Of a stretch of 64,000 bases of DNA, positions 42,529 to 55,100 are shown piece by piece. The notes below the pieces were generated by a model. The model was not told the origin of the DNA, did not search any database, and saw only the letters and a list, made by a program, of their open reading frames with translations. The stretch lies in IMG/VR virus record IMGVR_UViG_3300036940_000389. One strand, given 5' to 3'. Within the stretch, counting starts at the first letter, position 1. Every line of letters begins with the position of its first letter. Made by a program: the position numbers and the translations under genes. This stretch comes from a virus.

Positions 42529-42753
42529 ATGTCGGAAGATAATTTTCAACTGACCCTTGAAAATCAATTAGATATTGAGTCTGCGTTAATAATGATGGAA
42601 ATTGTTGTCAATAACAGATTATTGACTATTCCGAATATTGAACTTTTAATGATTGCCAAAAACAGATTAGAGAAACAGATAGAGAACATAAAACTTCGTG
42701 GAGCTATTTGCGATCATGAAGATATAAGAGAATTTTGTGAAGGGAGCAGATAG
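42529..42753 (+). CDS. hypothetical protein
   Basis: GGAGA SD before ATG 42529. Confidence 0.55.
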   Translation: MSEDNFQLTLENQLDIESALIMMEIVVNNRLLTIPNIELLMIAKNRLEKQIENIKLRGAICDHEDIREFCEGSR

Positions 42754-42776
42754 AAATTTTTGCTCCCTTCATTTTT
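42739..42776. terminator. likely bidirectional terminator at the convergence of late and early blocks
   Basis: GAAGGGAGCA/TGCTCCCTTC stem followed by ATTTTT, between convergent genes. Confidence 0.7.
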
Positions 42777-42792: not shown

Positions 42793-43314
42793 TTACGCAA
42801 TTCCTGTGTGTCCAAATCCACCTTCTCCACGACTTGATTCAGGAAGCTCTTTGCATTCTTCAAAGATAGCTTGTGGTGATAATTCCAAAGAAGCTTGTAC
42901 TATTCTTTCTCCCGCAGATATATATACATCGTGTTCATTTATATTTTTGATAAGAGCACAAACTTCTCCTCTGTATCCCTGATCGATAATTCCTGTTCCA
43001 TTAGCAAGCATAATCTCATTGTTTTTTGCTTGTCCAGAACGTATGTACAATTTCATAACAAAAGGGGGAGGAACTGCTACTTTTATTCCTAAAGGAATTT
43101 GCACTATTCTGTCTTTGGAAATCAATCCGCTGATACAAGATCTCAGATCAAAACAAGCATCTCCTTCTTTTGCATATTCAACTGGTCCCCATTTTTTGTA
43201 ATCATAATTTCCAAGATACATTACTTGCAATACAGGCCTTAATAATGATTCATGCATATTGAAAATTATCGGATGACAATGTTGATGTCTTGCTACATAA
43301 TCTTTTGTGCTCAT
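42793..43314 (-). CDS. dut: trimeric dUTPase
   Basis: ACFDL, IRSG, GIIDQGYRGE, GERIVQ, RGEGGFGHTG. Confidence 0.95.
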   Translation of the reverse strand: MSTKDYVARHQHCHPIIFNMHESLLRPVLQVMYLGNYDYKKWGPVEYAKEGDACFDLRSCISGLISKDRIVQIPLGIKVAVPPPFVMKLYIRSGQAKNNEIMLANGTGIIDQGYRGEVCALIKNINEHDVYISAGERIVQASLELSPQAIFEECKELPESSRGEGGFGHTGIA

Positions 43315-43484
43315 ATATTGTCCTCATCTATTTTTATTTTTAATTGATAATAATCGTTTGAGTCTCCAATATCGTTCACTTTATTTTTCCAACAAGAATC
43401 ACATCTCCTCCAATATCCTTTTTTAAGCACTGCGCCGCAATCGACACAGTGCTTTTTTGTTTTTTTTCTTTTTCTGAAAGTCAT
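43311..43484 (-). CDS. small zinc-binding protein
   Basis: CVDCG..RRCDSC; start uncertain. Confidence 0.55.
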   Translation of the reverse strand: MTFRKRKKTKKHCVDCGAVLKKGYWRRCDSCWKNKVNDIGDSNDYYQLKIKIDEDNI

Positions 43485-43489
43485 TATTT

Positions 43490-43636
43490 TTATAAAACGC
43501 AAATCATAGCAATGAATGCGTTGCTGTGATCACGTCTGAAAAGTTGCAAAGCTTCATCCAAGCATCCAGCAACAATATTGACAGAATAAGGAATATCACT
43601 TTCATTGAAGTATACAAAATGATATTTGCGTCCCAT
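43490..43636 (-). CDS. small protein (paralogue of 46059-46211)
   Basis: AAGGAGA SD before ATG 43636. Confidence 0.55.
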   Translation of the reverse strand: MGRKYHFVYFNESDIPYSVNIVAGCLDEALQLFRRDHSNAFIAMICVL

Positions 43637-43647
43637 GCTATTTCTCC

Positions 43648-46056
43648 TTATTGACAGTTTGAATATCCACAGATAGCACAAATTCCACCCCGGCAGCCTG
43701 CATCTCTTCTCAAAGCAGGCTGTCCACATTCAGGACAAACTTCCAAACCGCATTCCCATTCATTAGAATTATATGGTTTTGTGTCCCATTTATTTGATAA
43801 TTCATGTACTTCTTGTACTTCATCTACTTGATTTCTGATTTCTCTCAGAACTGAGGCAATTGCATCTGGTATAGATTTGATTAATCCTCCATTCTGAAAT
43901 ATTGGATAATCTCCCCCTATCCCTTCTAATTGTTTGATGATGTGATCTATGTGTACTCCGCAACGCAGGGCTAAAGATACAAGTCGTCCTATAGCTTCTG
44001 CTTTTGCAGCCATTGATCTTCCGCCTTTTCCAATCGTAGCAAATACTTCAAATGGTCTTCCATTGTGCCAATTAACAGTAAGATACAATTCACCACTTCC
44101 TGTTAATATTTTCTTTGTAGTTCCTGACAGATTATCCGGTCTGTCTAAAGGCTGAGTATATTCAAAAGATTCAAGAGTCAAGGAAAGCGGTTCCTCTTTG
44201 ATTTGAGTCTCGTCTGAACTCAGTGTCACGCTACTCTCTTTCGTTGAAGGATCATGCTGTTCTGCTTCAGTGTGAGCTTGTTGTGATTCTGTTTCAGTAC
44301 CGAAATCAATGGGCTGATCATCAAGGCTTCCATCACGATAAACAGTAATGCCTTTAAGATCCTTTTCCCAAGCCATCAAGTATATTTTGGCTACATCTTC
44401 CGTAGAAGCAGATTTTGGTAAATTGACAGTTGAAGAAACAGCCATTGTGATATTTTTCTGCGCTGCTGCTTGTACTTCAATTCTTTGTTCGTTTGGAATG
44501 TCATGTGCTGTAATGAATACATCTCTTATCCACTGGTATTCTTCTGGAAAATATGTATTTTTTAAAGTTCCTTTATTACGTTTAATTTCTCGAATCACTT
44601 CATCTTTGTCCCTAGCATATTTACCGCAACGAAGAACACTATTTAATGCTTTTTCAAATTCTGGATTTAAGAATTCCATTGTTTCGCCATTATCAAGAAT
44701 CTTTGTCCATATCAATCCAAATTGAGGTTCTGTTGAATAGCTACAGTCAGCAGATAGTGCGGTGCTCCCTGTTGGAGCAATTGTTGTGACTGTAATATTT
44801 CCAGGAAGTTCTTTTCCAGCAGGAATGTCAGCAAACCTATTTACGAGTTCATTGAATCGTGTCTTTTCCCATGTATTTAGTTTAGAAGTCATGTCAGGAA
44901 TTAAAGCATTACTAACTAATAATGAACTGGATTTAAAAGCATATTTAGTAAGTGCTTTGGTGAAATTATGCAGCACATCACAACTTTTTTGTGATCCGTA
45001 CTGTATTTTTTCTTTGTAAAGATAATCAGCAAATCCCATTAGTCCTAACCCAATGGGACGATATTTTTTCATGTTTTCTTCAAACTTTTTGTTTGGATAG
45101 GATGATTTGTCGATAATTCTATTTAAGAAAAGTGTGCTCCAATAAATATCATTTTCAAATGCAGAATCATCAGGTCCATCATATTTTATGACATTAAGAT
45201 GTCCTAAATTGCAACACGAATTTGGCCATAAACTGGCCTCTCCACACGGATTTGTAGACTCTATTAATATATCAAGAGGATTATCTCTATTCACTCTATC
45301 AATAAATAGAAGGCCAGGATCACCTGTTTCCCATGCTGCTTGGCAAATATGTTTCCATAAATCCATTACTGATATTGTTTTTCCTGTTGGTCCCTCATTT
45401 GGATCAATCAATTCAATTTCTTCATGAGTATTTCTTGTTTTTGTCACTATCTTTGCGAGTTCCATGAATTTATCATCAACTACAATTGACAAGTTCATGG
45501 ATTTATAACTTTTTTTATCCCTTTTGCAGTTGATAATATTCATTATATCAGGATGATTGTATTTTGCAGCAATAAGATTTGCTGCTCTCCTCTGCTTCCC
45601 ACCACTTTTGATTTCTTCACTGATTACTTCTATTACATTTAGATATGATAAAGGCCCACTTGCATAGCCGCCCTTGGATAGCCCTGCCCCTTTTTTTCTG
45701 AGATTTGTGATGGGAATTCCAGCTCCGCCACCACCTTCATAAATTTTTGCACAAGTTCCCCACATGTTAATAATGCTGTCCATAGTATCCTGGAGATCAA
45801 GGACGAAACACGCAAGCATCATTGGATCTTTTTTTATGCCAGCATTTGCCATGCAGGGTGTATTTGGACGAAATTTTTGTTCATCAAGAAGTCTTCTAAA
45901 ATTGTTATATTCATCACCATTTTCAGCTAAAAAGTTAGCCACTCTATCATGACATTCATCTATGGTTTCTATCACCTCATTGTTGTTGTTTCTTGCAAGA
46001 TACAGTTTTTTGTAGATATTTACCGCATTTTCTGAATATATTTCTTCTAAACTCAT
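43648..46056 (-). CDS. nrdJ: class II (B12-dependent) ribonucleotide reductase with TSCPD and Zn-ribbon C-terminus
   Basis: NTPCMANAG, ACFV, TNPCGE, IGLGLMG, TIAPTGS, YRDGS, SIPDA, CPECG..C..CGYS. Confidence 0.92.
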   Translation of the reverse strand: MSLEEIYSENAVNIYKKLYLARNNNNEVIETIDECHDRVANFLAENGDEYNNFRRLLDEQKFRPNTPCMANAGIKKDPMMLACFVLDLQDTMDSIINMWGTCAKIYEGGGGAGIPITNLRKKGAGLSKGGYASGPLSYLNVIEVISEEIKSGGKQRRAANLIAAKYNHPDIMNIINCKRDKKSYKSMNLSIVVDDKFMELAKIVTKTRNTHEEIELIDPNEGPTGKTISVMDLWKHICQAAWETGDPGLLFIDRVNRDNPLDILIESTNPCGEASLWPNSCCNLGHLNVIKYDGPDDSAFENDIYWSTLFLNRIIDKSSYPNKKFEENMKKYRPIGLGLMGFADYLYKEKIQYGSQKSCDVLHNFTKALTKYAFKSSSLLVSNALIPDMTSKLNTWEKTRFNELVNRFADIPAGKELPGNITVTTIAPTGSTALSADCSYSTEPQFGLIWTKILDNGETMEFLNPEFEKALNSVLRCGKYARDKDEVIREIKRNKGTLKNTYFPEEYQWIRDVFITAHDIPNEQRIEVQAAAQKNITMAVSSTVNLPKSASTEDVAKIYLMAWEKDLKGITVYRDGSLDDQPIDFGTETESQQAHTEAEQHDPSTKESSVTLSSDETQIKEEPLSLTLESFEYTQPLDRPDNLSGTTKKILTGSGELYLTVNWHNGRPFEVFATIGKGGRSMAAKAEAIGRLVSLALRCGVHIDHIIKQLEGIGGDYPIFQNGGLIKSIPDAIASVLREIRNQVDEVQEVHELSNKWDTKPYNSNEWECGLEVCPECGQPALRRDAGCRGGICAICGYSNCQ

Positions 46057-46058
46057 TA

Positions 46059-46211
46059 TTACTCCTTTATCATTTCAACTTTCGTTACGAGTGCATTTGG
46101 ATTTTGTTGTTCAAACTTCCAAATCGCTTTATAAATATCACCAGCAGCTATAATTTGAGTTATTACATCATCTCCATTGACATACGCAGTGATTGCAAAT
46201 TTGAATCCCAT
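46059..46211 (-). CDS. 50-aa protein (not in ORF track; paralogue of 43490-43636)
   Basis: MGFKFAITAYVNG..IIAAGDIYKAIWKFEQQNPNALV*, AAGGAG SD. Confidence 0.6.
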   Translation of the reverse strand: MGFKFAITAYVNGDDVITQIIAAGDIYKAIWKFEQQNPNALVTKVEMIKE

Positions 46212-46221
46212 AATTTACTCC

Positions 46222-46437
46222 TTATTCATTCTCAAACTCACCAACGTATTCTAATGTTTTTACCTCAATATCAGAATCAAATTCGTTTCTGAAGTTATAG
46301 TGATGTTTTATTTCTTTTTTACGCAGACATGCCTCAACACATGTTTTCATCCATCCTTGTAAAAATTTCACCCAATTGTCGTCTTTAATATCAATTCCGT
46401 GTATTTGTACTTCAAAGGATATGTACTTTACTCCCAT
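46222..46437 (-). CDS. hypothetical protein
   Basis: 71 aa, AAGGAG SD. Confidence 0.65.
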   Translation of the reverse strand: MGVKYISFEVQIHGIDIKDDNWVKFLQGWMKTCVEACLRKKEIKHHYNFRNEFDSDIEVKTLEYVGEFENE

Positions 46438-46452
46438 TTTGTAGCTCCTTAT

Positions 46453-46662
46453 TTATTTCTTTTCTTTGATTTCCGATGCAGCTTCCAATTTTTTTATGGC
46501 CTGCTTGATACTTCCTAAGGATCTTGTACTGTTTATTTGTATTCTCACATGTTGCAATTCATGATTATTCAAACCAGAAGATATATCGTTGGTAAAAATT
46601 CTTCCATCAGCAGCAATCTCAGCCACAACTCCAGCACTTTTCAATTCGATAAAAATACTCAT
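46453..46662 (-). CDS. hypothetical protein
   Basis: 69 aa, AGAGGG SD. Confidence 0.6.
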   Translation of the reverse strand: MSIFIELKSAGVVAEIAADGRIFTNDISSGLNNHELQHVRIQINSTRSLGSIKQAIKKLEAASEIKEKK

Positions 46663-46663
46663 A

Positions 46664-47410
46664 TCATCCCTCTTTTGTATAAAACATGTTATTCTTTCTC
46701 ACATATTCATCGTCTGGATCATCTGCTATGATGGTTGTTTCGTACACTTTGTTTGCTTTGTCATGAGCTTCTATAAGCTCTTTGCACTTGGGACACTCAT
46801 CACACGAATAATATGTTCCCTGTTTATAAATAGGAGAACCACAGGACCAAACATTTGATAATAAATGATCAGGAAGTAATTGTATAATTTCGTGTTTATA
46901 CAATTGATTGCTTGGATTGAACTTTTCTATTTTTTTCTGTCCTATTGTGTTTATGTAGTCAGTTATTGCTTTTGATGAATTGAAAGATTCTTCATCTTCA
47001 TTAGCTTTTTTTGCTTCTTCAAAGTTTTGGCCAGATAGAACCCATGCTTTTTCATATTTTATAGCTATATTTTCTCCATCAAGAAATGCAAAAGTGCCTT
47101 TTATGCTGTTGATTGCAAATTGCGCTGTTATATACATTTGCAGATGAGTAAACCGCATTATAAATGGAGTATCAAGATAAACAGTTCTCAGATTCATTTG
47201 AGGAAAGTAATTCAGAACATTTTTGAGAGACAAATATTCTGGAACAGCGCAATTTTTCCTGTCTTTTTGCTCATGAAACACATATACACAGTGCGTGTCA
47301 GTTTTTTCAGATTTTCCTTTTGTATGCCAATAGTGCAGATTATATAAACTCTCTACACCACTTGTACAAGCAATGAAACAACCCTCTTTTTTATGACGTT
47401 GTTTTGGCAT
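46664..47410 (-). CDS. divergent QueC-like PP-loop ATP pyrophosphatase
   Basis: IACTSGVES (cf. SGGxDS); C-terminal WSC-x12-CDECPKC Zn site. Confidence 0.65.
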   Translation of the reverse strand: MPKQRHKKEGCFIACTSGVESLYNLHYWHTKGKSEKTDTHCVYVFHEQKDRKNCAVPEYLSLKNVLNYFPQMNLRTVYLDTPFIMRFTHLQMYITAQFAINSIKGTFAFLDGENIAIKYEKAWVLSGQNFEEAKKANEDEESFNSSKAITDYINTIGQKKIEKFNPSNQLYKHEIIQLLPDHLLSNVWSCGSPIYKQGTYYSCDECPKCKELIEAHDKANKVYETTIIADDPDDEYVRKNNMFYTKEG

Positions 47411-47425
47411 TATTCTTCTCCTTAT

Positions 47426-47629
47426 TTACATCGTTTCTCGTATAAACTCAGTTCCATGTTCATCTTTGATTTGTTTTTTCAATTTACGATTTTCTTCAAC
47501 CAATTCAGTGTTTCTTTTTTGCAGAACTATATTCTGCATTTTTGTTTCCTTCATGTCATTGAGCACTTTGCTTAAAGCATATTGCAGTGCTTCGATTGTT
47601 GCTTTATCATCAATGTTTATACTCGGCAT
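47426..47629 (-). CDS. small coiled-coil protein
   Basis: 67 aa, AGGAG SD. Confidence 0.6.
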   Translation of the reverse strand: MPSINIDDKATIEALQYALSKVLNDMKETKMQNIVLQKRNTELVEENRKLKKQIKDEHGTEFIRETM

Positions 47630-47647
47630 AATTTACTCCTGTAGTTT

Positions 47648-47839
47648 TTATTTGTGAGATATGAACCACGAAGCAAGTCCTATGAGTGCAATAAATATTG
47701 GTGGCAGCCATAAAGGGGCTAGAATAAATACCCAAGGAATTGGTTCTGGTAAAAATCTACCTAATGCCAGAATGCCACACCAGAATAACAGAAAAACAAA
47801 CAAGAAACCTATTCCTGGAAACACTGATCTGTTTTTCAT
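47648..47839 (-). CDS. two-TM membrane protein
   Basis: FLFVFLLFWCGILA and WVFILAPLWLPPIFIALIG. Confidence 0.7.
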   Translation of the reverse strand: MKNRSVFPGIGFLFVFLLFWCGILALGRFLPEPIPWVFILAPLWLPPIFIALIGLASWFISHK

Positions 47840-48639
47840 TTTCCTATCCTTTCAGTTAAATATTTGTAAGAAAAACCGTAAGCATGAAGATCCTTACAAG
47901 AAAATGTCAGTGGTCCTGGATCGACCCCGATAACATCAGCAACATATTCGTTTAGAAGAGTGAAGCCTCCCATATTTGTAGGGAATCCCCCTACCAAATC
48001 CCACGATCTATATATAACATGAGTAGTGAGACAATTATCAATAACCCTAAAATCAAGACCTCTGAGACAGGGCGAGGTTCTCCTTTCCATCTCATTCTCA
48101 TATGGTATATCGTAAGCAAAGTTAGACTCAGGATAACCAACGCTAAGATAACAATGAGCATTTCCTTTTCCCTTTTTTAGAAAATGTTGAATAATCCATT
48201 CAAGTTGGTTTGGAACATTGATCCAAAGAGTATCTCCATCAACTATATAATCGACTTCTATACTGTTTCCATCAGAACAAAGATATTCCCATCCATTAAT
48301 TGCAGGAAGTTTATACCAGCCTCCAACAATCCAAGTAGCATAACGATAATCTTCATTTGGAGCTAAATTTGAGTCCATAAGATAGTTTGCAAAATATTGT
48401 TCAATTTCGTGATCAGTTGTTGGAGGAGGAAGTGTGCTCGATTCTGGCATTCGTGGAGCTAATGGTCTTTTGTGCGGATGCTGTACAAAACCAGATACAA
48501 AATCAAATGAATATCTGTACTGACCTTCATATGATCCTTTACTTATGTAGTATTTTCTTCCGTGTTCAAAAAGATTCCACAACAAACGAAACCAAGCATC
48601 ATCAAGATCAGTAGCTTCAATAAAAATCGGTTTAAACAT
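47836..48639 (-). CDS. thyA: thymidylate synthase family protein (dUMP-type)
   Basis: SPCL catalytic Cys, YRSWDL, GFPTN (Asn specificity residue), LHAY. Confidence 0.8.
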   Translation of the reverse strand: MFKPIFIEATDLDDAWFRLLWNLFEHGRKYYISKGSYEGQYRYSFDFVSGFVQHPHKRPLAPRMPESSTLPPPTTDHEIEQYFANYLMDSNLAPNEDYRYATWIVGGWYKLPAINGWEYLCSDGNSIEVDYIVDGDTLWINVPNQLEWIIQHFLKKGKGNAHCYLSVGYPESNFAYDIPYENEMERRTSPCLRGLDFRVIDNCLTTHVIYRSWDLVGGFPTNMGGFTLLNEYVADVIGVDPGPLTFSCKDLHAYGFSYKYLTERIGK

Positions 48640-48647
48640 GCATTCTC

Positions 48648-48857
48648 CTATTTAGTTATTATGTCCTTAAAACATTTTAATGTTGCTTTTGAAGAATCAT
48701 TTGAAGGAAAGAATTCTTTAGGGAATTCATAAGAAGGAAAACTTTTTTTATTTTTTATACAATCAATGAGAGTATTTTTATCTTGTATAATATTGTTCAT
48801 TTTTAATTCGATTTGTTCAGAAATACCTTTTTCAAAATATACTTTTGGAAGATTCAC
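48648..48857 (-). CDS. hypothetical protein
   Basis: 69-aa ORF packed in operon. Confidence 0.5.
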   Translation of the reverse strand: MNLPKVYFEKGISEQIELKMNNIIQDKNTLIDCIKNKKSFPSYEFPKEFFPSNDSSKATLKCFKDIITK

Positions 48858-48872
48858 ATTAAGTGAGCACGT

Positions 48873-49073
48873 TCATTCTTCTGTCTCTTTGTTTTTGGAT
48901 ATCTCTGCAAGCAGTTTCATTCCTTCTTTGACTTTTTCTTTCATAGAAGGATGACAAACAAGCTTATTTTCATGTATTTCTACTTCTTGTTTTGGGTTGC
49001 CCTGCTCGTCAAGCATATCTTCTTTTGTATGAATTTCAAGATGTGTGAGAAAATCAAGATTCATATTCATCAC
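48873..49073 (-). CDS. hypothetical protein
   Basis: 66-aa ORF overlapping the GT stop. Confidence 0.55.
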   Translation of the reverse strand: MMNMNLDFLTHLEIHTKEDMLDEQGNPKQEVEIHENKLVCHPSMKEKVKEGMKLLAEISKNKETEE

Positions 49074-50230
49074 GAATACTTCCTTATTATGTCGTGAAAC
49101 ATGTTGGCAATGACATCAGGACTTAGGACTCTTTGAATAAACTCTCTTCCCATCGTTTTTCTATTTTCTAAAGAGTTTTCATCTAATGCATCACACACAT
49201 GCTTCATGAGAAATCCAGTATCTTTTATGTCTGGCTCAGCCCAGCTTTGACTCCCATCATAATTTGGAATCCAGTTCATATGAGCTACAGGAGTCATTTG
49301 ATAGTTTGTCAAAAATGCTGATTTTCCGTCTAATGGTTTTAAGAAATCAACATGTCCACTATAATTTGGAGCAATGCATATGCATCTTCCTGCACAAGCT
49401 TCGGCAAAAGGAATACCAAATCCTTCTGCTCTTGGAATCATTACGAAACAATCACTTTGATTATATATTGAAATCAAATCTTTTTTGCTCATGATATCTC
49501 CAATTAGATATATCGGTGGATATGATTTTAATTTCATATCACTTTTTAATTGTTCTATTTCATTTTTTATGACTTGGAGTTCTCTTTTTGATGTGTTTGA
49601 TCTATACGTTTTCAGTATCAATACCACATCTTCTCTATCATAAAATTCACTGAAATACGCCTTTAATAATCCTATAGGATTTTTTCTTTCTGTCCATTGA
49701 AATACAGATAAAAATTTAAATCTTTTATTTTCACATGGTCCCAAGTCATATCTGCTCTCGCTTTTCTCTTCATTTATAAATTCATTCACGTCTACACAAT
49801 GAGGCAGAACTTCTATTGGAATTTTGATTCCATTTTGAATGTACAATTCTTTGTTGAATTCTGAAGGAACAAGCTGTAAATCAAAATATCTGTTAATTGT
49901 CCGTATCCATTTTTTAGGAAGCTTATCAGTTTCCCATGTGTTATACGCAATATTGATTTTGCCATGCTCAATCTTTATTTGTGCTTCGACAGGAACTTGA
50001 TGATGAACAACGAAATCATAAGAAATATCTCTTTTCTTTAAATCCATTACAAGTTTGCCCTGATCTCCGAAATATGATGCTGGTTGTGGATCTACTTGCT
50101 TTGGTTCTGTTGTGATTTCGAATCCAGCATTGTGTAAAGCAGATACATAATCTCTATTTGCTTGTCCATATCCACTATGACTCAATAACGGACCTTTCCA
50201 TTTTATTCCTATACTTGATTTATTTGTCAT
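49070..50230 (-). CDS. GT-B (GT4-like) glycosyltransferase
   Basis: SGYGQANR, YNTWET, FLSVFQWTERKN, AEGFGIPFAEA. Confidence 0.85.
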   Translation of the reverse strand: MTNKSSIGIKWKGPLLSHSGYGQANRDYVSALHNAGFEITTEPKQVDPQPASYFGDQGKLVMDLKKRDISYDFVVHHQVPVEAQIKIEHGKINIAYNTWETDKLPKKWIRTINRYFDLQLVPSEFNKELYIQNGIKIPIEVLPHCVDVNEFINEEKSESRYDLGPCENKRFKFLSVFQWTERKNPIGLLKAYFSEFYDREDVVLILKTYRSNTSKRELQVIKNEIEQLKSDMKLKSYPPIYLIGDIMSKKDLISIYNQSDCFVMIPRAEGFGIPFAEACAGRCICIAPNYSGHVDFLKPLDGKSAFLTNYQMTPVAHMNWIPNYDGSQSWAEPDIKDTGFLMKHVCDALDENSLENRKTMGREFIQRVLSPDVIANMFHDIIRKYS

Positions 50231-50279
50231 ATCATTTCTCCTGACTTGATTTATTTGTCATATCATTTCTCCTGACTTG
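50213..50279. repeat. perfect 31-bp tandem duplication at the GT-GT junction
   Basis: ACTTGATTTATTTGTCATATCATTTCTCCTG at 50213 and 50244 plus ACTTG. Confidence 0.95.
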
Positions 50280-51532
50280 TTTTTCCCTTCGTCAGGATAA
50301 AACTCGTCTTCGAGAATATCTTTTTGAAAATTACCACACCCATTTATCCAAGCATTTCCAAGTAGTATGGATTCATCACGCACTTTTTCATTATTCATCA
50401 TATTTCTTTCGAAGAATTCTAAGAATCCTCTAGCAATTACACCAGAAGAACAAGCTTTACTCAGTAAATATCCTGGACCATATGATGTGATGAGAGGAAT
50501 TTGATGTTCGTGATCAGGTTTTAATTGAATCAATACATTGTCTGGATTTATTTCTGGATTTCTTCTTGCCATATCAACAAAATCAATGTGTGCTGTATTA
50601 TAGCTAATAATACTAGGCACTCCTAAGAGTTTTGTTTCAACAACTGTCCAAGATAATCCTTCTTGAAATGAAGGGAGTACATGACAATCAAAAACACTAT
50701 AAAGAACAGAAATTTCTATAGGGGATAGTTTTCTACTGTTCATATTATGTGATAAGTTCTCTGCTGGTATGTTGAATTCTTCAGCAATTCTTTGAATACT
50801 GTACACATGATCAATATTATCAAGATGCAAATAAAGAAGCATGTCTTTTCTGAATTCTAGTGCTTCAGAGAATCCCTTAATTGTATTGTATATATTTTTT
50901 CGTATTTGATTGTTTGTAACAAATCCGAAAACAGGACAATTATCACTAATATTTGGAAATAATTGTTTTCTGACATCCATTTTCTCTTCATGTAACAATG
51001 GATTGTACAAATCCAAATATCTGAGTTTAGGTCTATAGTATTTTGCAGAGAGCACTTCATTTTTTATGAGATTGTATCCAAACTCTGAATACACATATAC
51101 CTGATCTGGATATTTGAGCCAGAGTATCCAATCATTTCTAATTTTATCAATATCGTAAGGAACAATTGCTTTCCAAATAAATCCACATCTTTTTTGTGCT
51201 TTTTTAATATTGTCAAATATTTCTACATATCTCCAAATATCAATTCCTATAAAAACAACAATATCAATCTCAACATCGTATAATATATTCAAAAGTTTGT
51301 TTTTGCCCCAAGGATCACTTCCTTCTTGTGCAAGAATTGTTTTGCAATTAATGCTTGATGAATATTCAAATGGATCACCCATTGAAGTTACTGATGGTAC
51401 ATCTTTTAAAAAAGCACACACATCATACTTTTCAGGATCAATATCTTCTAAGCAAGCACCAAGCATATTTCCATTTCCTGAAAAACAATCAGGATTTTGT
51501 CCAACAAGCAATACTCTTTTTTTCTGTGTCAT
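50258..51532 (-). CDS. GT-B (GT4-like) glycosyltransferase
   Basis: SGNGNM, FGFVTNNQIRKN, DCHVLPSFQEGLSWTVVETKLLGVP. Confidence 0.85.
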   Translation of the reverse strand: MTQKKRVLLVGQNPDCFSGNGNMLGACLEDIDPEKYDVCAFLKDVPSVTSMGDPFEYSSSINCKTILAQEGSDPWGKNKLLNILYDVEIDIVVFIGIDIWRYVEIFDNIKKAQKRCGFIWKAIVPYDIDKIRNDWILWLKYPDQVYVYSEFGYNLIKNEVLSAKYYRPKLRYLDLYNPLLHEEKMDVRKQLFPNISDNCPVFGFVTNNQIRKNIYNTIKGFSEALEFRKDMLLYLHLDNIDHVYSIQRIAEEFNIPAENLSHNMNSRKLSPIEISVLYSVFDCHVLPSFQEGLSWTVVETKLLGVPSIISYNTAHIDFVDMARRNPEINPDNVLIQLKPDHEHQIPLITSYGPGYLLSKACSSGVIARGFLEFFERNMMNNEKVRDESILLGNAWINGCGNFQKDILEDEFYPDEGKNKSGEMI

Positions 51533-51548
51533 TTTTTATCTCCCTTTT

Positions 51549-51755
51549 TTATGCACAATCTGAGCAAATATTTGTTTCCAAAAGATCAATTTCTTCATCC
51601 ATTAAATGAGGGAAGAATTCCATTGTAGATCTTGCTTGCCTTTGATTGACTATTTGATCCAGATATTCCTCATAATCTTCTTCATTCACAAAAAATGAAT
51701 ACTCCCTTTTGCAAACACTACATTGAACAGTAATCTTGCAATCTCTCAGCTTCAT
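51549..51755 (-). CDS. small zinc-binding phage protein
   Basis: CSVC..FFPHLMDEEIDLLETNICSDC. Confidence 0.65.
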   Translation of the reverse strand: MKLRDCKITVQCSVCKREYSFFVNEEDYEEYLDQIVNQRQARSTMEFFPHLMDEEIDLLETNICSDCA

Positions 51756-52336
51756 TACATTCTCCTTACATTTCCTTGTTTGACATCAAATACGGCATCT
51801 GCTTGATCTACTATATCATTCTCATGTGATGATATGATCATTTGCAATCCTAATTCATCTGCTAGATATCTGAGTGTGTTTGCTGCTTTGGGCATAAGAT
51901 TTGCTGATAAATTGCGAAACGGCTCATCCAGCACTATTACAGGAGAAGATTTTTCCAATTTCCAATCAGCAAGACGAAGTGCAAAAGCAATAGTATCCAT
52001 TACTCCACCACCAACAGCAAATTTGGGCTTTATTTTCTCTTCATCTTTTAGCAACCAAAAGTCACACTCAGTCTTATTTCTTCTTTCTATGAATTCAGGA
52101 TGAAATACGTATGGATGATCGAAAATAATTTGCAGTGCTTTTGTGACTAGAGATGAAAAATGGTGCTCAATATTTTTTTGAGTTTCCTTTGCTGCAAGCT
52201 GTAATATTATTTTTGCTTCTTGAATTGCTTCTTTTTCATATTCATGCTGCTGGATTTTATTTTTATCTTTTTCAATCGACTGCTCAAGCACCTTCTTTTG
52301 TGCTCTGCAATCATTTATTCTTTGCTCAAGGGACAT
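51755..52336 (-). CDS. sbcC: Rad50/SbcC-like ATPase, C-terminal half
   Basis: coiled coil; signature-like VGGG; Walker B VIVLDEPF; H-loop IISSH. Confidence 0.8.
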   Translation of the reverse strand: MSLEQRINDCRAQKKVLEQSIEKDKNKIQQHEYEKEAIQEAKIILQLAAKETQKNIEHHFSSLVTKALQIIFDHPYVFHPEFIERRNKTECDFWLLKDEEKIKPKFAVGGGVMDTIAFALRLADWKLEKSSPVIVLDEPFRNLSANLMPKAANTLRYLADELGLQMIISSHENDIVDQADAVFDVKQGNVRRM

Positions 52337-52584
52337 TATTCCTCCTCTATTTCTGATAAAAGATCATTTATCTCATTTTCCAGTTCATCTCTTTGTTCTT
52401 CCAGCTCTTTTTTTCTTTTTTTGAGTTCCTTTTCTTTTTCAATAAGCTCATTTAAATCATCAGTTCCGAATTCATTTTTTGCAGATTCTAGCATAGCACT
52501 GAGTTTTCCTTTTGCCTCAGCTAATTCACTGTTCTTTTCCTCAAGTATCTTTTTTAAATTATTGAAGTTTTTGATATCACTCAT
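52336..52584 (-). CDS. acidic coiled-coil protein
   Basis: 82 aa with heptad pattern. Confidence 0.7.
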   Translation of the reverse strand: MSDIKNFNNLKKILEEKNSELAEAKGKLSAMLESAKNEFGTDDLNELIEKEKELKKRKKELEEQRDELENEINDLLSEIEEE

Positions 52585-53531
52585 AAATTAATATCCTCGC
52601 TTAACGATTCCTCAATTATATTTGCAACCCTGTCATCGAATGATGTTTTCTTTTTTCTGATTCTTTTTTTCATTACTTTATTGATATTTGTTCTGTAATC
52701 AAGTTCTCCATCATCGAGATCATTTTTAAGACTCTCAGCAAATATTTCCCTTTTTAATTCTTCTTCATCCTTTTCTGTTTTTTTTGTATTTTTCTTAGCT
52801 ACTTGTGAAAAATCATCTATTTTATATTTGTGTACAGACAATTCCCTAGTTTTTGTATCATAAATAGCGTATTGCGGTTGATGATTTTCCTGATCCTCAC
52901 GCATTCTCATCAAGCTTCCGCAATTGATTACTTTGTTATTCAAAGAGAATGCTTGGTGATTGTCACCACACACGAATAAATCAAAATTTGTATTATGCTT
53001 TAAAGAACGTCCTTCAGTATATTCTTTCTGCCCATGCCACAGTCTTTTATTCTTTATGATCATTTCATGTGTGACAAGTATTTTTGTACAAAAACCACGT
53101 GCTCTCGCTGTTTCTTTTGGATGATCTTCTTTCCAACTTGATCCATACAAATAAACAGATTCATCAAGATATGTGACTTTTGTTGCTTTGTCTTTTTCTA
53201 TTTTGTGAATGAGATCAGTTTTATTCAATATTTGGATTGGAATGTCGGTGAGGCATGTGTTGTGGAATTTTACATCGTGTTGTCCGAATACCAAGTAAAT
53301 CGGAAGCCTATAAATCATTAAAAATGCTATTGTGTCATACACAACATCATATGGATCTTTTCCGTAATTATGAAAAAAATCCCCTGGCTGCAATACAATT
53401 TTGCAGTTTTCATCTTTGAAATGATCAAATGCTTGCGCTAGTTTATTGAATTGATTTTCGTAATAGTCATCTATCCTACATACTGGTCTTGAGGATCTTA
53501 TATGAAGATCGCCTAAAAGTCCTATCTTCAC
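52581..53531 (-). CDS. sbcD: Mre11/SbcD-like nuclease
   Basis: GDLH, PGDFFH, GQHD, VTHE, GDNH metallophosphoesterase motifs. Confidence 0.85.
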   Translation of the reverse strand: MKIGLLGDLHIRSSRPVCRIDDYYENQFNKLAQAFDHFKDENCKIVLQPGDFFHNYGKDPYDVVYDTIAFLMIYRLPIYLVFGQHDVKFHNTCLTDIPIQILNKTDLIHKIEKDKATKVTYLDESVYLYGSSWKEDHPKETARARGFCTKILVTHEMIIKNKRLWHGQKEYTEGRSLKHNTNFDLFVCGDNHQAFSLNNKVINCGSLMRMREDQENHQPQYAIYDTKTRELSVHKYKIDDFSQVAKKNTKKTEKDEEELKREIFAESLKNDLDDGELDYRTNINKVMKKRIRKKKTSFDDRVANIIEESLSEDINL

Positions 53532-53542
53532 TTCGGGTCTCC

Positions 53543-54598
53543 TTAGGATAGAGTTTGTTCACAAAGCGGGCAAATTTTTATTTTCTCTTTAAATTGTTCA
53601 AGATCATGTGCAGCTTTTCCTTGCTCATTTGCAAGCGTTTCCACAAGCTTTTTTTGTTTTCTTAGGTCAGAGTTCAGCTTCGTGATTTGATCAAAATCCA
53701 AAGCGTCCTCTTCTTTGATATGAAGCTCGATTTGATTGATTAGTGACTTGAGCTTTTTGCTGTGAGGATTGATTTTATTTATGAGTTTTTGAGTTTTGTG
53801 TATGTTGGAAACAGTATTTTTGATTCTCGTGATTTTTTCTTGCTCACTGTGCAGATCATTTATCGTGTTTCCTAGTTCATTAACACGTTTTTCCAGCTTT
53901 CTTATAGTCTTTTCTTTGGAAATTGTGTTTCTGAGATCCTCAGTTTTCTCAACTATATTGTTGATTTTTTTGATTTGTATTCTGGATTGATCTGCTTTTT
54001 TTGATACACCTTGATATTTGGAAAAGATTTTTTCAATATAAGAGAAGTTTTTGTACTTGGCCAATCTTTCTTCATTTTCTTTTATTTGCTCATTGAGATG
54101 CTTTATAGCTGAGTTCTGTCTGGAGTATAAAAGATTGACGTATGATAGACTTCTATCAATTTGATCAATGCCAACTACTTGATTCAGTTTTTTTGCAATA
54201 TCTCCTGGCTGATCAGAGAGTAAAAAATAGGGATCATCTTGAAGCTGAATATTGACTGGTAATATTTTTATTATCTCGTCTATTTCTTTAGGAACAGATG
54301 TTCTCACAGCATCAAAAGTTTGATTATTTATTTTGTAGCTATTTGTGTTTTTGCTACGGATTCTTTTGATTGAGTTTTTGTTTGAGGTTATTTCTATACT
54401 GCAACTGGATTTTCCCCATGTTATAAAAGCATTCCCACTTGGCTTATTGAAAAACAACCAATACAATGCTCTTATTATTGAGGACTTCCCTTGATCTGAT
54501 TCTCCAGTAATTACGTTGATTCCCCTTGATAATTCAAGGTACGATCTTCTATGTGATTGAAAGTTTTTTAAATGCAGAGAATCGATAAATTCATGCAT
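53543..54598 (-). CDS. sbcC: Rad50/SbcC-like ATPase, N-terminal half ending at the zinc hook
   Basis: LKNFQSH, Walker A GESDQGKSS, Q-loop IQLQ, coiled coil, terminal CPLC. Confidence 0.85.
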   Translation of the reverse strand: MHEFIDSLHLKNFQSHRRSYLELSRGINVITGESDQGKSSIIRALYWLFFNKPSGNAFITWGKSSCSIEITSNKNSIKRIRSKNTNSYKINNQTFDAVRTSVPKEIDEIIKILPVNIQLQDDPYFLLSDQPGDIAKKLNQVVGIDQIDRSLSYVNLLYSRQNSAIKHLNEQIKENEERLAKYKNFSYIEKIFSKYQGVSKKADQSRIQIKKINNIVEKTEDLRNTISKEKTIRKLEKRVNELGNTINDLHSEQEKITRIKNTVSNIHKTQKLINKINPHSKKLKSLINQIELHIKEEDALDFDQITKLNSDLRKQKKLVETLANEQGKAAHDLEQFKEKIKICPLCEQTLS

Positions 54599-54614
54599 AG
54601 TAGTTCCTAAATGA

Positions 54615-55100
54615 TTATCTCTTATAAAACTCAGGTATTATTTTGTATTTATCGAACAAAATTTTTAGTTGCTTTGTGAGTCTTTTTGATTTTGGATACT
54701 CAGGAATTTTTTGTGCTCCGTTCACAGCTTTTTTGAGCTTATTGTAACTGGATTTTTTGAGCTTTGGAGTCTTTTTTGATTCAGATGGATGTATGTAGGG
54801 ATAATGTTTTCTTTGTAAATACTCAGACATATTTATAAGCACAAAAGGAAGTTTTTTTTGCTCTATGCCGTATCGAGTGCAGTTGTTTTCCATCTTTCCC
54901 AAAAGCACGTTGCAATTTCTGCACAAGACTCCCCTTATTTGTCCAGTACCATGTATTTTTTTCTTGTGATGATGATCTAGCGCAGGAGATGTGATATATT
55001 CGCCACAAATAGGACAAATATAGTTTTGTTCTTGTAGTATTTTTTCTCTGAGTTTTGGAATATCTTTATATTTGAGTTTTGTGATTCTTTTTCTCTGCAC
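54615..55100 (-). CDS. recombination endonuclease VII-like
   Basis: CPIC..LDHHH..IRGVLCRNCNVLLGK. Confidence 0.85.
   Translation of the reverse strand: MQRKRITKLKYKDIPKLREKILQEQNYICPICGEYITSPALDHHHKKKIHGTGQIRGVLCRNCNVLLGKMENNCTRYGIEQKKLPFVLINMSEYLQRKHYPYIHPSESKKTPKLKKSSYNKLKKAVNGAQKIPEYPKSKRLTKQLKILFDKYKIIPEFYKR

What the first reader, a model, noticed from the sequence alone, without database searches (positions are those of the whole stretch)
46664..51532. QueC-like + thymidylate-synthase-like + two GT4 glycosyltransferases: candidate DNA or virion modification pathway
Seen: four enzymes cluster between nrdJ/dut and the recombination genes. The QueC-like protein has a divergent PP-loop (TSGVES) and an intact Cys4 site, but no folE, queD, queE or dpdA is in the window. 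The TS keeps Asn in PTN (dUMP-type; Asp marks dCMP hydroxymethylases). Established: phages hypermodify DNA via TS homologues plus GTs or via 7-deazaguanines, and QueC paralogues can also modify proteins in QatABCD and type IV CBASS. Inference: an undescribed route, such as hmU/other-base glycosylation with ATP-dependent amidation, capsid glycosylation, or a QueC-type counter-defence. Plain dTMP synthesis with unrelated GTs remains possible.
Basis: partly seen in the sequence, partly recalled or inferred. Interest (0 to 1): 0.7.

Follow-up and report, generated by a model that had tools for sequence, protein, structure and literature searches.

The report
Phage nucleotide genes beside sugar-transfer cassette
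Four neighbouring enzymes in an uncultivated phage are real, but they look like three separate units (a thymidine-making enzyme tied to nucleotide supply, a movable pair of sugar-adding enzymes, and an orphan QueC-like enzyme) rather than one new DNA-modification pathway, although sugar-decorated DNA is not excluded.

Summary
Four minus-strand genes at 46664-51532 encode a QueC-like protein (PP-loop TSGVES, four Cys), a dUMP-type thymidylate-synthase homologue and two GT4 glycosyltransferases. No FolE, QueD, radical-SAM or TGT/DpdA match occurs in the 89-kb record.

A single four-enzyme pathway is not supported.
- **TS-like gene:** it belongs to a large uncultivated-phage family. Its steady neighbour is class II RNR (41 of 70 loci). 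It occurs without ThyX (0/31), mostly without TAGT (2/49) and often without GT4 (17/31).
- **GT4 pair:** it moves as a cassette with sulfotransferases, a methyltransferase or an epimerase in relatives. In the sister lineage its homologue lies between head and tail genes, ahead of large sugar cassettes. Its nearest solved structure is a chlorovirus glycosyltransferase.
- **QueC-like protein:** it lacks canonical QueC substrate motifs, matches no defence model and is present in only some relatives.

One caveat keeps DNA glycosylation alive at about 0.25. Outside the window the genome encodes a TAGT-family DNA glycosyltransferase next to a sugar epimerase, with no match to TET or C5-methylase models. 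The TS-like protein also has Thr at the water-excluding Leu143 position and no C-terminal lid.

The scan previously noted candidate sulfated sugar-DNA kits on other DNA; I did not test those.

The parts
42793..43314 (-). dUTPase (supplies dUMP)
   Evidence: PF00692 2.6e-16; syntenic with TS and RNR in relatives L001, L005, L104
43648..46056 (-). class II-type ribonucleotide reductase with C-terminal TSCPD domain
   Evidence: PF02867 2.5e-95, PF12637 1.1e-20; a homologue lies within 10 kb of the TS-like gene in 41 of 70 viral loci
46222..46662 (-). two small ORFs (71 and 69 aa) of unknown function between RNR and the QueC-like gene
   Evidence: no PHROG or Pfam family above threshold
46664..47410 (-). 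orphan QueC-superfamily PP-loop protein (P0001): loop TSGVES, Cys190/203/206/209 zinc site, canonical QueC substrate motifs absent
47426..47839 (-). two small ORFs (67 and 63 aa), unknown; the second overlaps the TS-like gene's stop codon by 4 nt
47836..48639 (-). divergent dUMP-type thymidylate-synthase homologue (P0002), most likely a dTMP synthase
   Evidence: PF00303 32.3 bits; TIGR03283 57 bits over the full length; 855 homologues; catalytic residues kept; Thr188 at the Leu143 position; ends 13 residues after Tyr254
48648..49073 (-). two small ORFs (69 and 66 aa), unknown; relatives carry a sulfotransferase or methyltransferase in this slot
49070..50230 (-). GT4 glycosyltransferase (P0003, 'GTa'), E-x7-E at 269-277
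   Evidence: PF00534 1.2e-9, phrog_2170 1.8e-22; always adjacent to GTb in relatives
50258..51532 (-). GT4-like GT-B glycosyltransferase (P0004, 'GTb'), E291-x7-E299 invariant
   Evidence: phrog_2170 3.7e-10; homologues carry PF00534 with or without GT9; model pLDDT 90; best PDB match is chlorovirus GT 3oy2
51549..55100 (-). flanking recombination block: 68-aa ORF, SbcC C-terminal half (51755-52336), 82-aa ORF, SbcD (52581-53531), SbcC N-terminal half (53543-54598), endonuclease VII (54615-55100)
   Evidence: same order in L001, L005, L006

Best explanation
The four genes are three functionally separate units packed into one early/middle operon of an uncultivated tailed phage of roughly 90-105 kb.

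(1) The TS-like protein belongs to a large, uncharacterised phage family of dUMP-specific thymidylate-synthase homologues. These resemble the short methanogen-type enzyme in layout. It most likely makes dTMP from the dUMP supplied by the adjacent dUTPase and RNR. This is inferred, not shown.

(2) The two GT4 enzymes form a movable glycan cassette. Close relatives add sulfotransferases, a methyltransferase or an NDP-sugar epimerase to it. The sister lineage carries a homologous GT4+GT9 gene and large sugar-nucleotide cassettes between the head and tail genes. The cassette most likely builds a short glycan on a non-DNA acceptor, probably virion proteins. This too is inferred.

(3) The QueC-like protein is an accessory, fast-evolving orphan of the QueC superfamily. 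It keeps the zinc site and a variant nucleotide loop (S/T-x-G-x-E-S) but has lost the residues that bind 7-carboxy-7-deazaguanine. If it is active, it performs ATP-dependent activation or amidation of some other carboxylate. It is not part of a preQ0 or dPreQ0 pathway.
For: TS-like gene:
- It has the catalytic Cys, Arg/Ser/Asp, Asn177-equivalent, His and Tyr.
- It is the only TS/ThyX-type gene in the record.
- In 70 IMG/VR loci with a family member, RNR lies within 10 kb in 41, the GT4 pair in 1 and TAGT in 0.
- In whole records, TAGT is present in 2/49 (0/8 near-complete), ThyX in 0/31 and GT4 in 14/31, so four near-complete genomes have the TS-like gene but no GT4.

GT4 pair:
- GTb and GTa are always adjacent, but their position relative to TS changes. 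In L003 they are separated from TS by SbcCD. In L104 they lie after dUTPase and are followed by an epimerase. In L001 and L005 sulfotransferase or methyltransferase genes intervene.
- 80 IMG/VR loci of the same phage lineage carry the GTb homologue, fused to GT9. Their terminase, portal and MCP are homologous to the window's (1.7e-189, 3.7e-160, 4e-124). In 78 of the 80 the conserved 205-aa head-module gene that directly precedes the GT in the mapped loci is present. In the 12 loci whose gene order was printed, a variable cassette follows. In L026 that cassette encodes GT2, a DegT aminotransferase, an RmlD-like enzyme, methyltransferases and GT8. Radical-SAM genes occur in others.
- Three near-complete genomes of that lineage have no TAGT, and two of them have no TS homologue.
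- The P0004 model (pLDDT 90) matches chlorovirus GT B736L best (Foldseek 8.8e-19; profile 6e-8). No DNA glucosyltransferase appears among the 50 matches listed.

QueC-like protein:
- YxQxHxxE, VPxRN, YPDC and Tyr189 are absent, while Lys165 and the four Cys are kept (motifs from PMC13329287).
- It has no PADLOC QueC/Cap9 or QatC hit.
- No pathway partners were found in the record.
- It is present in the window, L001 and L020 (truncated to 145 aa there), and absent from L003, L005, L103 and L104.
Against: - The genes are tightly packed on one strand with overlaps, with no terminator between genes (one weak hairpin inside GTb) and no excess of promoter-like sites, so co-expression is likely.
- The TS-like family has an invariant Thr where ThyA has the water-excluding Leu143, and it lacks the C-terminal lid of ThyA (the Leu143 rule is from PMC13326640). 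The methyl versus hydroxymethyl product is therefore not settled.
- Its N-terminal 180 residues cannot be aligned to ThyA by HMM or hhalign.
- The genome also encodes a TAGT-family glycosyltransferase plus an epimerase, and gave no match to the TET or C5-methyltransferase models.
- In this subgroup the GT pair sits among DNA-metabolism genes, not structural genes.
- No experiment bears on any of the four proteins.
Confidence: 0.5

Rival explanations
1. DNA hypermodification. The TS-like protein is a dUMP hydroxymethylase. hmU replaces T in phage DNA and is glycosylated by the GT4 pair. The sugar chain is extended by the TAGT encoded about 16 kb further along the record, just beyond the window's end, using a sugar nucleotide tailored by the adjacent epimerase. 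Relatives with sulfotransferases would sulfate the sugar.
For: - TAGT (PF20691 7.5e-49, full length) lies next to an NDP-sugar epimerase in the replication module.
- No TET/JBP and no C5-methyltransferase model matched, so the TS-like gene is the only candidate source of a C5 hydroxymethyl group found in the record.
- The TS-like protein has Asn222 (dUMP type), Thr188 at the Leu143 position and no C-terminal lid (rule in PMC13326640).
- T2 and T6 use the same logic: a TS homologue, a GT-B enzyme and TAGT (PMC13216743).
- The GT pair lies within 10 kb of the TS-like gene in the window, L001, L003, L005 and L104.
- Earlier scan notes on other DNA propose hmU plus sugar plus sulfate kits (leads only, untested).
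Against: - The TS-like family and TAGT do not co-occur: 2/49 records one way and 0/20 the other.
- Near-complete genomes carry the TS-like gene with no GT4 and no TAGT.
- Known hydroxymethylases have Asp or Glu at the Leu143 position (T4 gp42 and SPO1 gp29), not Thr.
- The steady partner of the TS-like gene is RNR.
- The 20 records searched that hold close homologues of this TAGT have no TS homologue. These homologues also occur in cultured Aeromonas, Tenacibaculum and Vibrio phages.
- GTb homologues in the sister lineage sit in the structural operon of genomes without TS or TAGT.
- No dNMP kinase for hmdUMP was identified, though I did not search for one exhaustively.
Confidence: 0.25
2. The GT4 pair, with or without TAGT, remodels a host envelope glycan (LPS, capsule or teichoic acid) during infection. 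This could block superinfection or alter receptors. It would not decorate virions or DNA.
For: GT4 and GT9 families are typical envelope-glycan enzymes. Weak NCBIfam hits are to glycolipid and LPS transferases. Distant homologues are fused to a heptosyltransferase-like domain.
Against: No flippase, polymerase, Gtr-type or membrane-anchoring partner was seen in the genes I annotated. In the sister lineage the gene lies between head and tail genes, not in a lysogenic-conversion position. The best structural match is a viral GT.
Confidence: 0.1
3. The QueC-like protein is a counter-defence factor against QueC-family immunity (type IV CBASS Cap9 or QatC). It would act by binding or consuming the 7-deazaguanine precursor, or by acting as a decoy.
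For: Its fold and zinc site are of QueC type. Distant cousins hit the PADLOC Cap9-type 'QueC' model at 2.7e-9. Patchy presence and fast divergence fit an arms-race gene. A close relative carries an Acb2/Tad1-like gene nearby (L006).
Against: The residues that bind the deazaguanine substrate are missing. P0001 itself has no defence-model hit. No experiment or conserved partner points to this role.
Confidence: 0.1

Closest known systems
Thymidylate synthase ThyA (PF00303) and the short methanogen-type TS (TIGR03283)
   Same: It has the catalytic Cys, the Arg-Ser-x-Asp phosphate and folate motif, Asn for dUMP, and the His-x-Tyr motif. It is colinear with the methanogen-type model over residues 6-257 and, like it, has no long C-terminal tail.
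   Different: Only the last ~80 residues align to ThyA. It scores 57 bits against a cut-off of 174.55 for TIGR03283. Thr replaces Leu143. It carries a ~50-residue variable insert. No cultured phage among 50,697 records has a full-length relative.
Phage pyrimidine hydroxymethylases (T4 gp42, SPO1 gp29) and 5-hydroxy-dCMP synthases (RB69 gp48)
   Same: It is a TS-fold homologue encoded near glycosyltransferases and has no C-terminal lid.
   Different: It has Asn rather than Asp at position 177, so it is not dCMP type. It has Thr rather than Asp or Glu at position 143. Asp169 is kept, so it is not a 5hodCMP synthase.
Canonical QueC (preQ0 synthase), Cap9 and QatC
   Same: It has the PP-loop Rossmann fold with a C-terminal Cys4 zinc site and the conserved Lys.
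   Different: The loop is T-S-G-V-E-S instead of S-G-G-x-D-S. YxQxHxxE, VPxRN, YPDC and Tyr189 are absent. The cysteine spacing is C-x12-C rather than C-x8-C. No match to the QueD, radical-SAM (QueE family), FolE or TGT models was found. It has no PADLOC hit. At 248 aa it is far shorter than QatC (about 400 aa).
Chlorovirus NY-2A glycosyltransferase B736L (PDB 3oy2) and phage virion-glycosylation cassettes
   Same: P0004 is a GT-B/GT4 enzyme whose best sequence-profile and structural match is this viral GT. Sister-lineage homologues sit with sugar-tailoring genes between head and tail genes. From my own recollection, mycobacteriophage Corndog has a similar arrangement.
   Different: Identity is only 16%. 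In this phage the pair lies among DNA-metabolism genes. No glycosylated virion protein has been shown.
T2/T6 beta-glucosyl-HMC alpha-glucosyltransferase / TAGT (PF20691)
   Same: The gene outside the window (L102:5942-7177, minus strand) matches the whole family model.
   Different: It has no accompanying alpha- or beta-GT, and no TET model match. It carries extra N- and C-terminal regions (411 aa against a 205-position domain). It belongs to the 'solitary TAGT' group whose acceptor is unknown (PMC13216743).

Membership tests
Canonical QueC (PF06508 cluster 1, preQ0 synthase) | SGGxDS pyrophosphate loop | tested here: not met
   The loop is T16-S-G-V-E-S21. The three closest relatives have SSGAES, SSGTES and SGGIES. 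This is a conserved variant, so nucleotide binding may persist.
Canonical QueC (PF06508 cluster 1, preQ0 synthase) | Substrate motifs YxQxHxxE, VPxRN, YPDC and Tyr189 (essential by mutagenesis, PMC13329287) | tested here: not met
   Alignment with E. coli QueC gives H46/Q48/D50/N53 in place of Y/Q/H/E, no R-N, no YPDC, and Gly191 in place of Tyr189.
Canonical QueC (PF06508 cluster 1, preQ0 synthase) | Cys4 zinc motif and the conserved Lys165 | tested here: met
   C190, C203, C206, C209 and K172 are present. The spacing is C-x12-C-x2-C-x2-C, not C-x8-C.
Canonical QueC (PF06508 cluster 1, preQ0 synthase) | Pfam gathering score, and linkage to queD/queE (or FolE, DpdA in phages) | tested here: not met
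   No PF06508 hit for the protein or anywhere in the record. No match to the PTPS, radical-SAM, GTP cyclohydrolase I or TGT models.
Defence-type QueC paralogues (Cap9, QatC) | Match to the defence models, and partner genes (CD-NTase/Cap10 or QatABD) | tested here: not met
   PADLOC gives no hit for P0001 or its two closest relatives. The neighbours are TS, RNR and small ORFs. Partner genes were not searched by model.
ThyA-type thymidylate synthase (PF00303) | Catalytic Cys146; Arg166/Ser167/Asp169; Asn177; His207/Tyr209; Pfam score over the cut-off | tested here: met
   C191, R211, S212, D214, N222, H252 and Y254 are present. The score is 32.3 bits against 24.3.
ThyA-type thymidylate synthase (PF00303) | Bulky hydrophobic residue at Leu143 and a C-terminal lid that closes over the cofactor (features linked to a methyl rather than hydroxymethyl product) | tested here: not met
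   Thr188 is invariant in 47 family members. The protein ends 13 residues after Tyr254.
ThyA-type thymidylate synthase (PF00303) | N-terminal folate and dUMP residues (Arg21, Glu58, Trp80, Tyr94, Arg126/127) | tested here: inconclusive
   Residues 1-180 do not align to ThyA by hmmsearch or hhalign. They align only to TIGR03283.
Methanogen-type TS (TIGR03283 equivalog) | Score over the curated cut-off | tested here: not met
   57.2 bits against 174.55, although the match covers positions 2-197 of 201.
dCMP/dUMP hydroxymethylase and 5-hydroxy-dCMP synthase | Asp/Glu at position 143 (hydroxymethylases); Asp at 177 (dCMP); Asn at 169 (5hodCMP synthase) | tested here: not met
   The residues are Thr188, Asn222 and Asp214 (rules from PMC13326640). 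Thr at position 143 is neither class, so the chemistry stays open.
GT4 retaining glycosyltransferases (GT-B) | Glycos_transf_1 domain, E-x7-E motif, two-Rossmann GT-B fold | tested here: met
   P0003: PF00534 1.2e-9 and E269-x7-E277. P0004: E291-x7-E299 invariant, model pLDDT 90.3, all 50 listed PDB matches GT-B-fold glycosyltransferases, mostly GT4.
Phage DNA glucosyltransferases alpha-GT (PF11440) and beta-GT (PF09198) | Match to the family model or closest structural match | tested here: not met
   Neither family appears in the Pfam scans of P0003 or P0004, and neither is among the 50 Foldseek matches listed.
One conserved gene cluster (operonic pathway) | Co-occurrence and conserved adjacency of the four genes in relatives | tested here: not met
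   The QueC-like gene is absent from L003, L005, L103 and L104. The GT pair is separated from TS in L003 and L104. The TS family occurs without GT4 in 17/31 records.

The most novel reading that the evidence does not exclude
This phage and its close relatives replace thymine with 5-hydroxymethyluracil made by a new Thr143-type, lid-less TS homologue. They then build an oligosaccharide on it with two GT4 enzymes and a solitary TAGT. In relatives the sugar is sulfated or methylated. The orphan QueC-like enzyme would add an ATP-dependent amide. The result would be a glycosylated (and sulfated) hmU hypermodification not yet demonstrated in any virus.
Probability: 0.2. Interest if true: 0.85.

Novelty: new variant of a known kind. 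Interest (0 to 1): 0.42.

Why it matters
If the ordinary reading holds, the value is mainly in annotation.
- A family of at least 855 phage TS homologues has no cultured representative. It should be treated as probable dTMP synthases whose product is unproven.
- GT4 cassettes in this widespread phage lineage (genomes of roughly 90-105 kb) point to virion glycosylation well outside the mycobacteriophages.
- Stand-alone viral QueC-like proteins should not be annotated as 7-deazaguanine genes.

If the minority reading holds, it would add a new thymidine hypermodification (glycosyl-hmU, possibly sulfated). It would also give a sequence signature (Thr at the Leu143 position, no lid) for finding it in metagenomes. 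That bears on restriction evasion and on how such DNA sequences.

Tried and rejected
- **Single-sequence AlphaFold of P0001:** pLDDT 35, unusable. The Atlas model was used instead.
- **Word-indexed homologue search for P0001:** it found only itself. IMG/VR scans with P0001, its close-relative alignment and P0003 found nothing, and the wide alignment had no usable block.
- **blastn of the 6-kb region against 50,697 phage records:** no match.
- **Contexts of distant QueC-like cousins:** they are heterogeneous. One is next to RadA and a methyltransferase in an Ekhidna genome. Two have a GT2 gene two to three genes downstream. Others are uninformative or on short contigs. No function could be read from them.
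- **Aligning the N-terminal half of the TS-like family to ThyA:** this failed, so Glu58, Trp80 and Tyr94 could not be checked.
- **Whole-record searches of the ENA and Logan relatives (L001, L003, L005):** not possible, so I do not know whether they carry TAGT.
- **Tet_JBP searches:** negative in the record (where the control matched only below the cut-off) and in 20 TAGT-bearing records (where nothing matched in any control genome). These negatives are weak.
- **QueC-like as a WbpG-type sugar amidotransferase:** I considered this because PMC13329287 lists that branch. I set it aside because that branch has its motifs in the reverse order. An Atlas row with QueC fused to a sugar epimerase is only a lead.

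Full report
**What is there.** The window is bases 11753-75752 of an 89,286-bp IMG/VR virus record that is 84% complete. Structural genes run on the plus strand (8490-42515). Replication, recombination and nucleotide genes run on the minus strand (42793 onward). The finding's four ORFs are real: 46664-47410 (P0001, 248 aa), 47836-48639 (P0002, 267 aa), 49070-50230 (P0003, 386 aa) and 50258-51532 (P0004, 424 aa). They sit between dUTPase and class II RNR+TSCPD on one side and a split SbcC, SbcD and endonuclease VII on the other. From 42793 to 55100 the gaps between genes run from -82 to +27 nt, apart from one of 165 nt. There is no minus-strand terminator between genes (one weak hairpin lies inside GTb) and no excess of promoter-like sites. 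One transcription unit is therefore likely.

**QueC-like protein: family placement.** P0001 has no Pfam or PDB sequence hit of its own and only a PHROG 'QueC-like' hit at 3e-8. An exhaustive phmmer search found 22 relatives. Of the 23 aligned sequences, 19 hit PF06508. The family profile hits B. subtilis QueC (1.8e-9) and Cap9 (4.7e-5). The Atlas's own model (pTM 0.78) has QueC clusters, mostly viral, as its nearest neighbours at TM 0.63-0.67.

**QueC-like protein: it is not a canonical QueC.** I aligned it with E. coli QueC and judged it by the signature defined experimentally in PMC13329287. It lacks YxQxHxxE, VPxRN, YPDC and Tyr189. It keeps Lys165 and the zinc site. Its three closest relatives share the S/T-x-G-x-E-S loop, which suggests a constrained variant rather than decay. 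It matches no PADLOC Cap9 or QatC model. No match to the FolE, QueD, radical-SAM or TGT/DpdA models exists in the record.

**QueC-like protein: distribution.** It is patchy. It is present just downstream of the TS-like gene in the window, in L001 (35% identity) and in L020 (truncated to 145 aa). It is absent from L003, L005, L103 and L104. In a more distant phage (L150) a fully canonical QueC (1.8e-51) occupies the position just upstream of the TS-like gene. That record also has QueD but no TGT. The orphan could therefore be a diverged leftover of such a gene; this is inference.

**TS-like protein: residues.** P0002 passes PF00303 only through its last ~80 residues. Over its full length it is colinear with the methanogen-type TS model, at 57 bits and below the cut-off. 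I aligned it with E. coli ThyA, T4 gp42 and SPO1 gp29, fetched and aligned. It has the catalytic Cys191, Arg211/Ser212/Asp214, Asn222, His252 and Tyr254. I then applied the diagnostic positions summarised in PMC13326640:
- Asn at position 177 means dUMP, not dCMP.
- Asp at position 169 means it is not a 5-hydroxy-dCMP synthase.
- Position 143 is an invariant Thr. This is neither the Leu of methyl-forming ThyA nor the Asp/Glu of hydroxymethylases.
- The protein ends 13 residues after Tyr254, so it has no ThyA-type lid.

Sequence alone therefore does not settle methyl versus hydroxymethyl.

**TS-like protein: context.** The family is large (855 hits) and has no full-length relative in 50,697 cultured-phage records. 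In 70 IMG/VR loci, a homologous RNR lies within 10 kb in 41, the GT4 pair in 1, a QueC in 1 and TAGT in none. In whole records, TAGT occurs in 2 of 49 (0 of 8 near-complete), ThyX in 0 of 31 and GT4 in 14 of 31. It is also the only TS-type gene in this record. A sole TS-type gene that travels with RNR and dUTPase, and that often occurs with no glycosyltransferase at all, is best read as a dTMP synthase.

**Glycosyltransferases: family and close relatives.** P0003 is a GT4 enzyme (PF00534; E269-x7-E277). P0004 has an invariant E291-x7-E299. Its homologues carry PF00534 and often a fused GT9 domain. It models confidently (pLDDT 90.3) as GT-B. Its best profile and structural match is the chlorovirus NY-2A glycosyltransferase B736L (6e-8; Foldseek 8.8e-19, TM 0.67/0.72), ahead of cellular GT4 enzymes. 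No DNA glucosyltransferase appears among the 50 matches listed. In close relatives the two GTs are always adjacent, but the cassette moves and changes content:
- L001 and L005 add a sulfotransferase and a methyltransferase between the GTs and TS.
- L003 has GT-GT plus two sulfotransferases on the far side of SbcCD.
- L104 has TS-RNR-dUTPase, then GT-GT, an unknown gene and an NDP-sugar epimerase.

This phage itself has no Sulfotransfer_2 match; the other sulfotransferase families were not searched.

**Glycosyltransferases: the sister lineage.** Eighty IMG/VR loci were retrieved with the P0004 family. They belong to the same phage lineage, since their terminase, portal, capsid, tail-tube and tape-measure proteins are homologous to the window's. 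The GT4+GT9 gene lies about 2 kb downstream of the capsid gene where both are seen (69 loci), and in the 12 loci whose gene order was printed it sits between the head and tail genes. In 78 of the 80 loci the conserved 205-aa head-module gene that directly precedes the GT in the mapped loci is present. In the mapped loci a variable cassette follows. In L026 that cassette encodes GT2, a DegT-type aminotransferase (3.6e-117), an RmlD-like reductase, methyltransferases, further GT-like genes and GT8. Radical-SAM enzymes occur in others. Three near-complete genomes of that lineage have no TAGT, and two of the three have no TS homologue. A multi-sugar cassette in genomes with no TS-type source of a base hydroxyl argues for a non-DNA acceptor. 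Its position in the virion operon suggests virion proteins. From my own recollection, not checked here, mycobacteriophage Corndog has a similar insertion, and virion glycosylation was shown for mycobacteriophages in 2023.

**The caveat.** Annotating the rest of the record turned up a TAGT-family protein (PF20691, 7.5e-49, whole model; phrog_842) between the sliding clamp and the helicase. Directly next to it is an NDP-sugar epimerase/dehydratase (5e-51). Both lie outside the window, at genome 78941-81110. The one biochemically characterised TAGT member cited (T2/T6) adds a second sugar to glucosylated hmC in DNA. Solitary TAGTs of unknown acceptor are common (PMC13216743). The record gave no match to the TET/JBP or C5-methyltransferase models. 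If this TAGT works on DNA, the TS-like protein is the only candidate source of the hydroxymethyl group found.

Against this, 54 IMG/VR loci carry close homologues (44-68% identity) of this TAGT in varied contexts. None of the 20 records searched has a TS homologue. Homologues also occur in cultured Aeromonas, Tenacibaculum, Vibrio and Nonlabens phages. Earlier notes of this scan on other genomes propose hmU plus sugar plus sulfate kits related to phiRSL1. I did not test them, and P0002 has no detectable relative in Ralstonia phages.

**Verdict.**
- The single-pathway interpretation is not supported.
- The best reading (0.5) is three independent units: dTMP supply, a movable glycan cassette probably aimed at virion proteins, and an orphan QueC-like accessory enzyme.
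- A glycosylated-hmU DNA modification remains possible (about 0.2-0.25) and would be of high interest.
- Every function assigned here is inferred from sequence, structure prediction and gene context. None was shown experimentally.

Noticed in passing
L102:5942-8111 (genome G000:C1 78941-81110, beyond the window's right end): A TAGT-family (PF20691) glycosyltransferase of 411 aa sits directly next to an NDP-sugar epimerase/dehydratase, between the sliding clamp and the DnaB-like helicase. No match to the TET or C5-methyltransferase models was found in the record.
   Followed up: partly
window 51755-54598: SbcC/Rad50 appears split into an N-terminal ATPase half (53543-54598) and a C-terminal half (51755-52336), with SbcD (52581-53531) and an 82-aa coiled-coil-like ORF between them. 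The same order occurs in L001, L005 and L006.
   Followed up: no
L021-L100, e.g. L026:9998-19716: The sister lineage of this phage carries a GT4+GT9 fusion and a variable sugar-nucleotide and glycosyltransferase island (DegT, RmlD-like, methyltransferases, GT2, GT8, radical SAM/B12) inserted between the head and tail genes. This is a candidate virion-glycosylation island.
   Followed up: partly
L150:9206-10789: A fully canonical QueC (PF06508 1.8e-51) lies directly upstream of a TS-like family member in a 98.5-kb viral record. That record has QueD but no TGT.
   Followed up: partly
alignment A3 (P0064, P0096, P0124): Some TS-like family members carry Cys-rich inserts resembling a zinc ribbon (CxxC...CxxC), placed just before or after the catalytic-Cys strand.
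   Followed up: no
L005:892-2856 and L005:15277-18453: In a 101.8-kb relative, the 5'-3' exonuclease gene carries a LAGLIDADG-type insertion and the RNR gene carries an intein.
   Followed up: no
L006:3228-3440: A close relative encodes a 70-aa Acb2/Tad1-hairpin-like protein (a family of anti-CBASS/Thoeris sponges) between the exonuclease and endonuclease VII genes.
   Followed up: no
window 42737-42772: A strong 14-bp hairpin with a T-run lies at the point where the plus-strand late genes and the minus-strand early/middle genes converge. It is a likely shared terminator.
   Followed up: no
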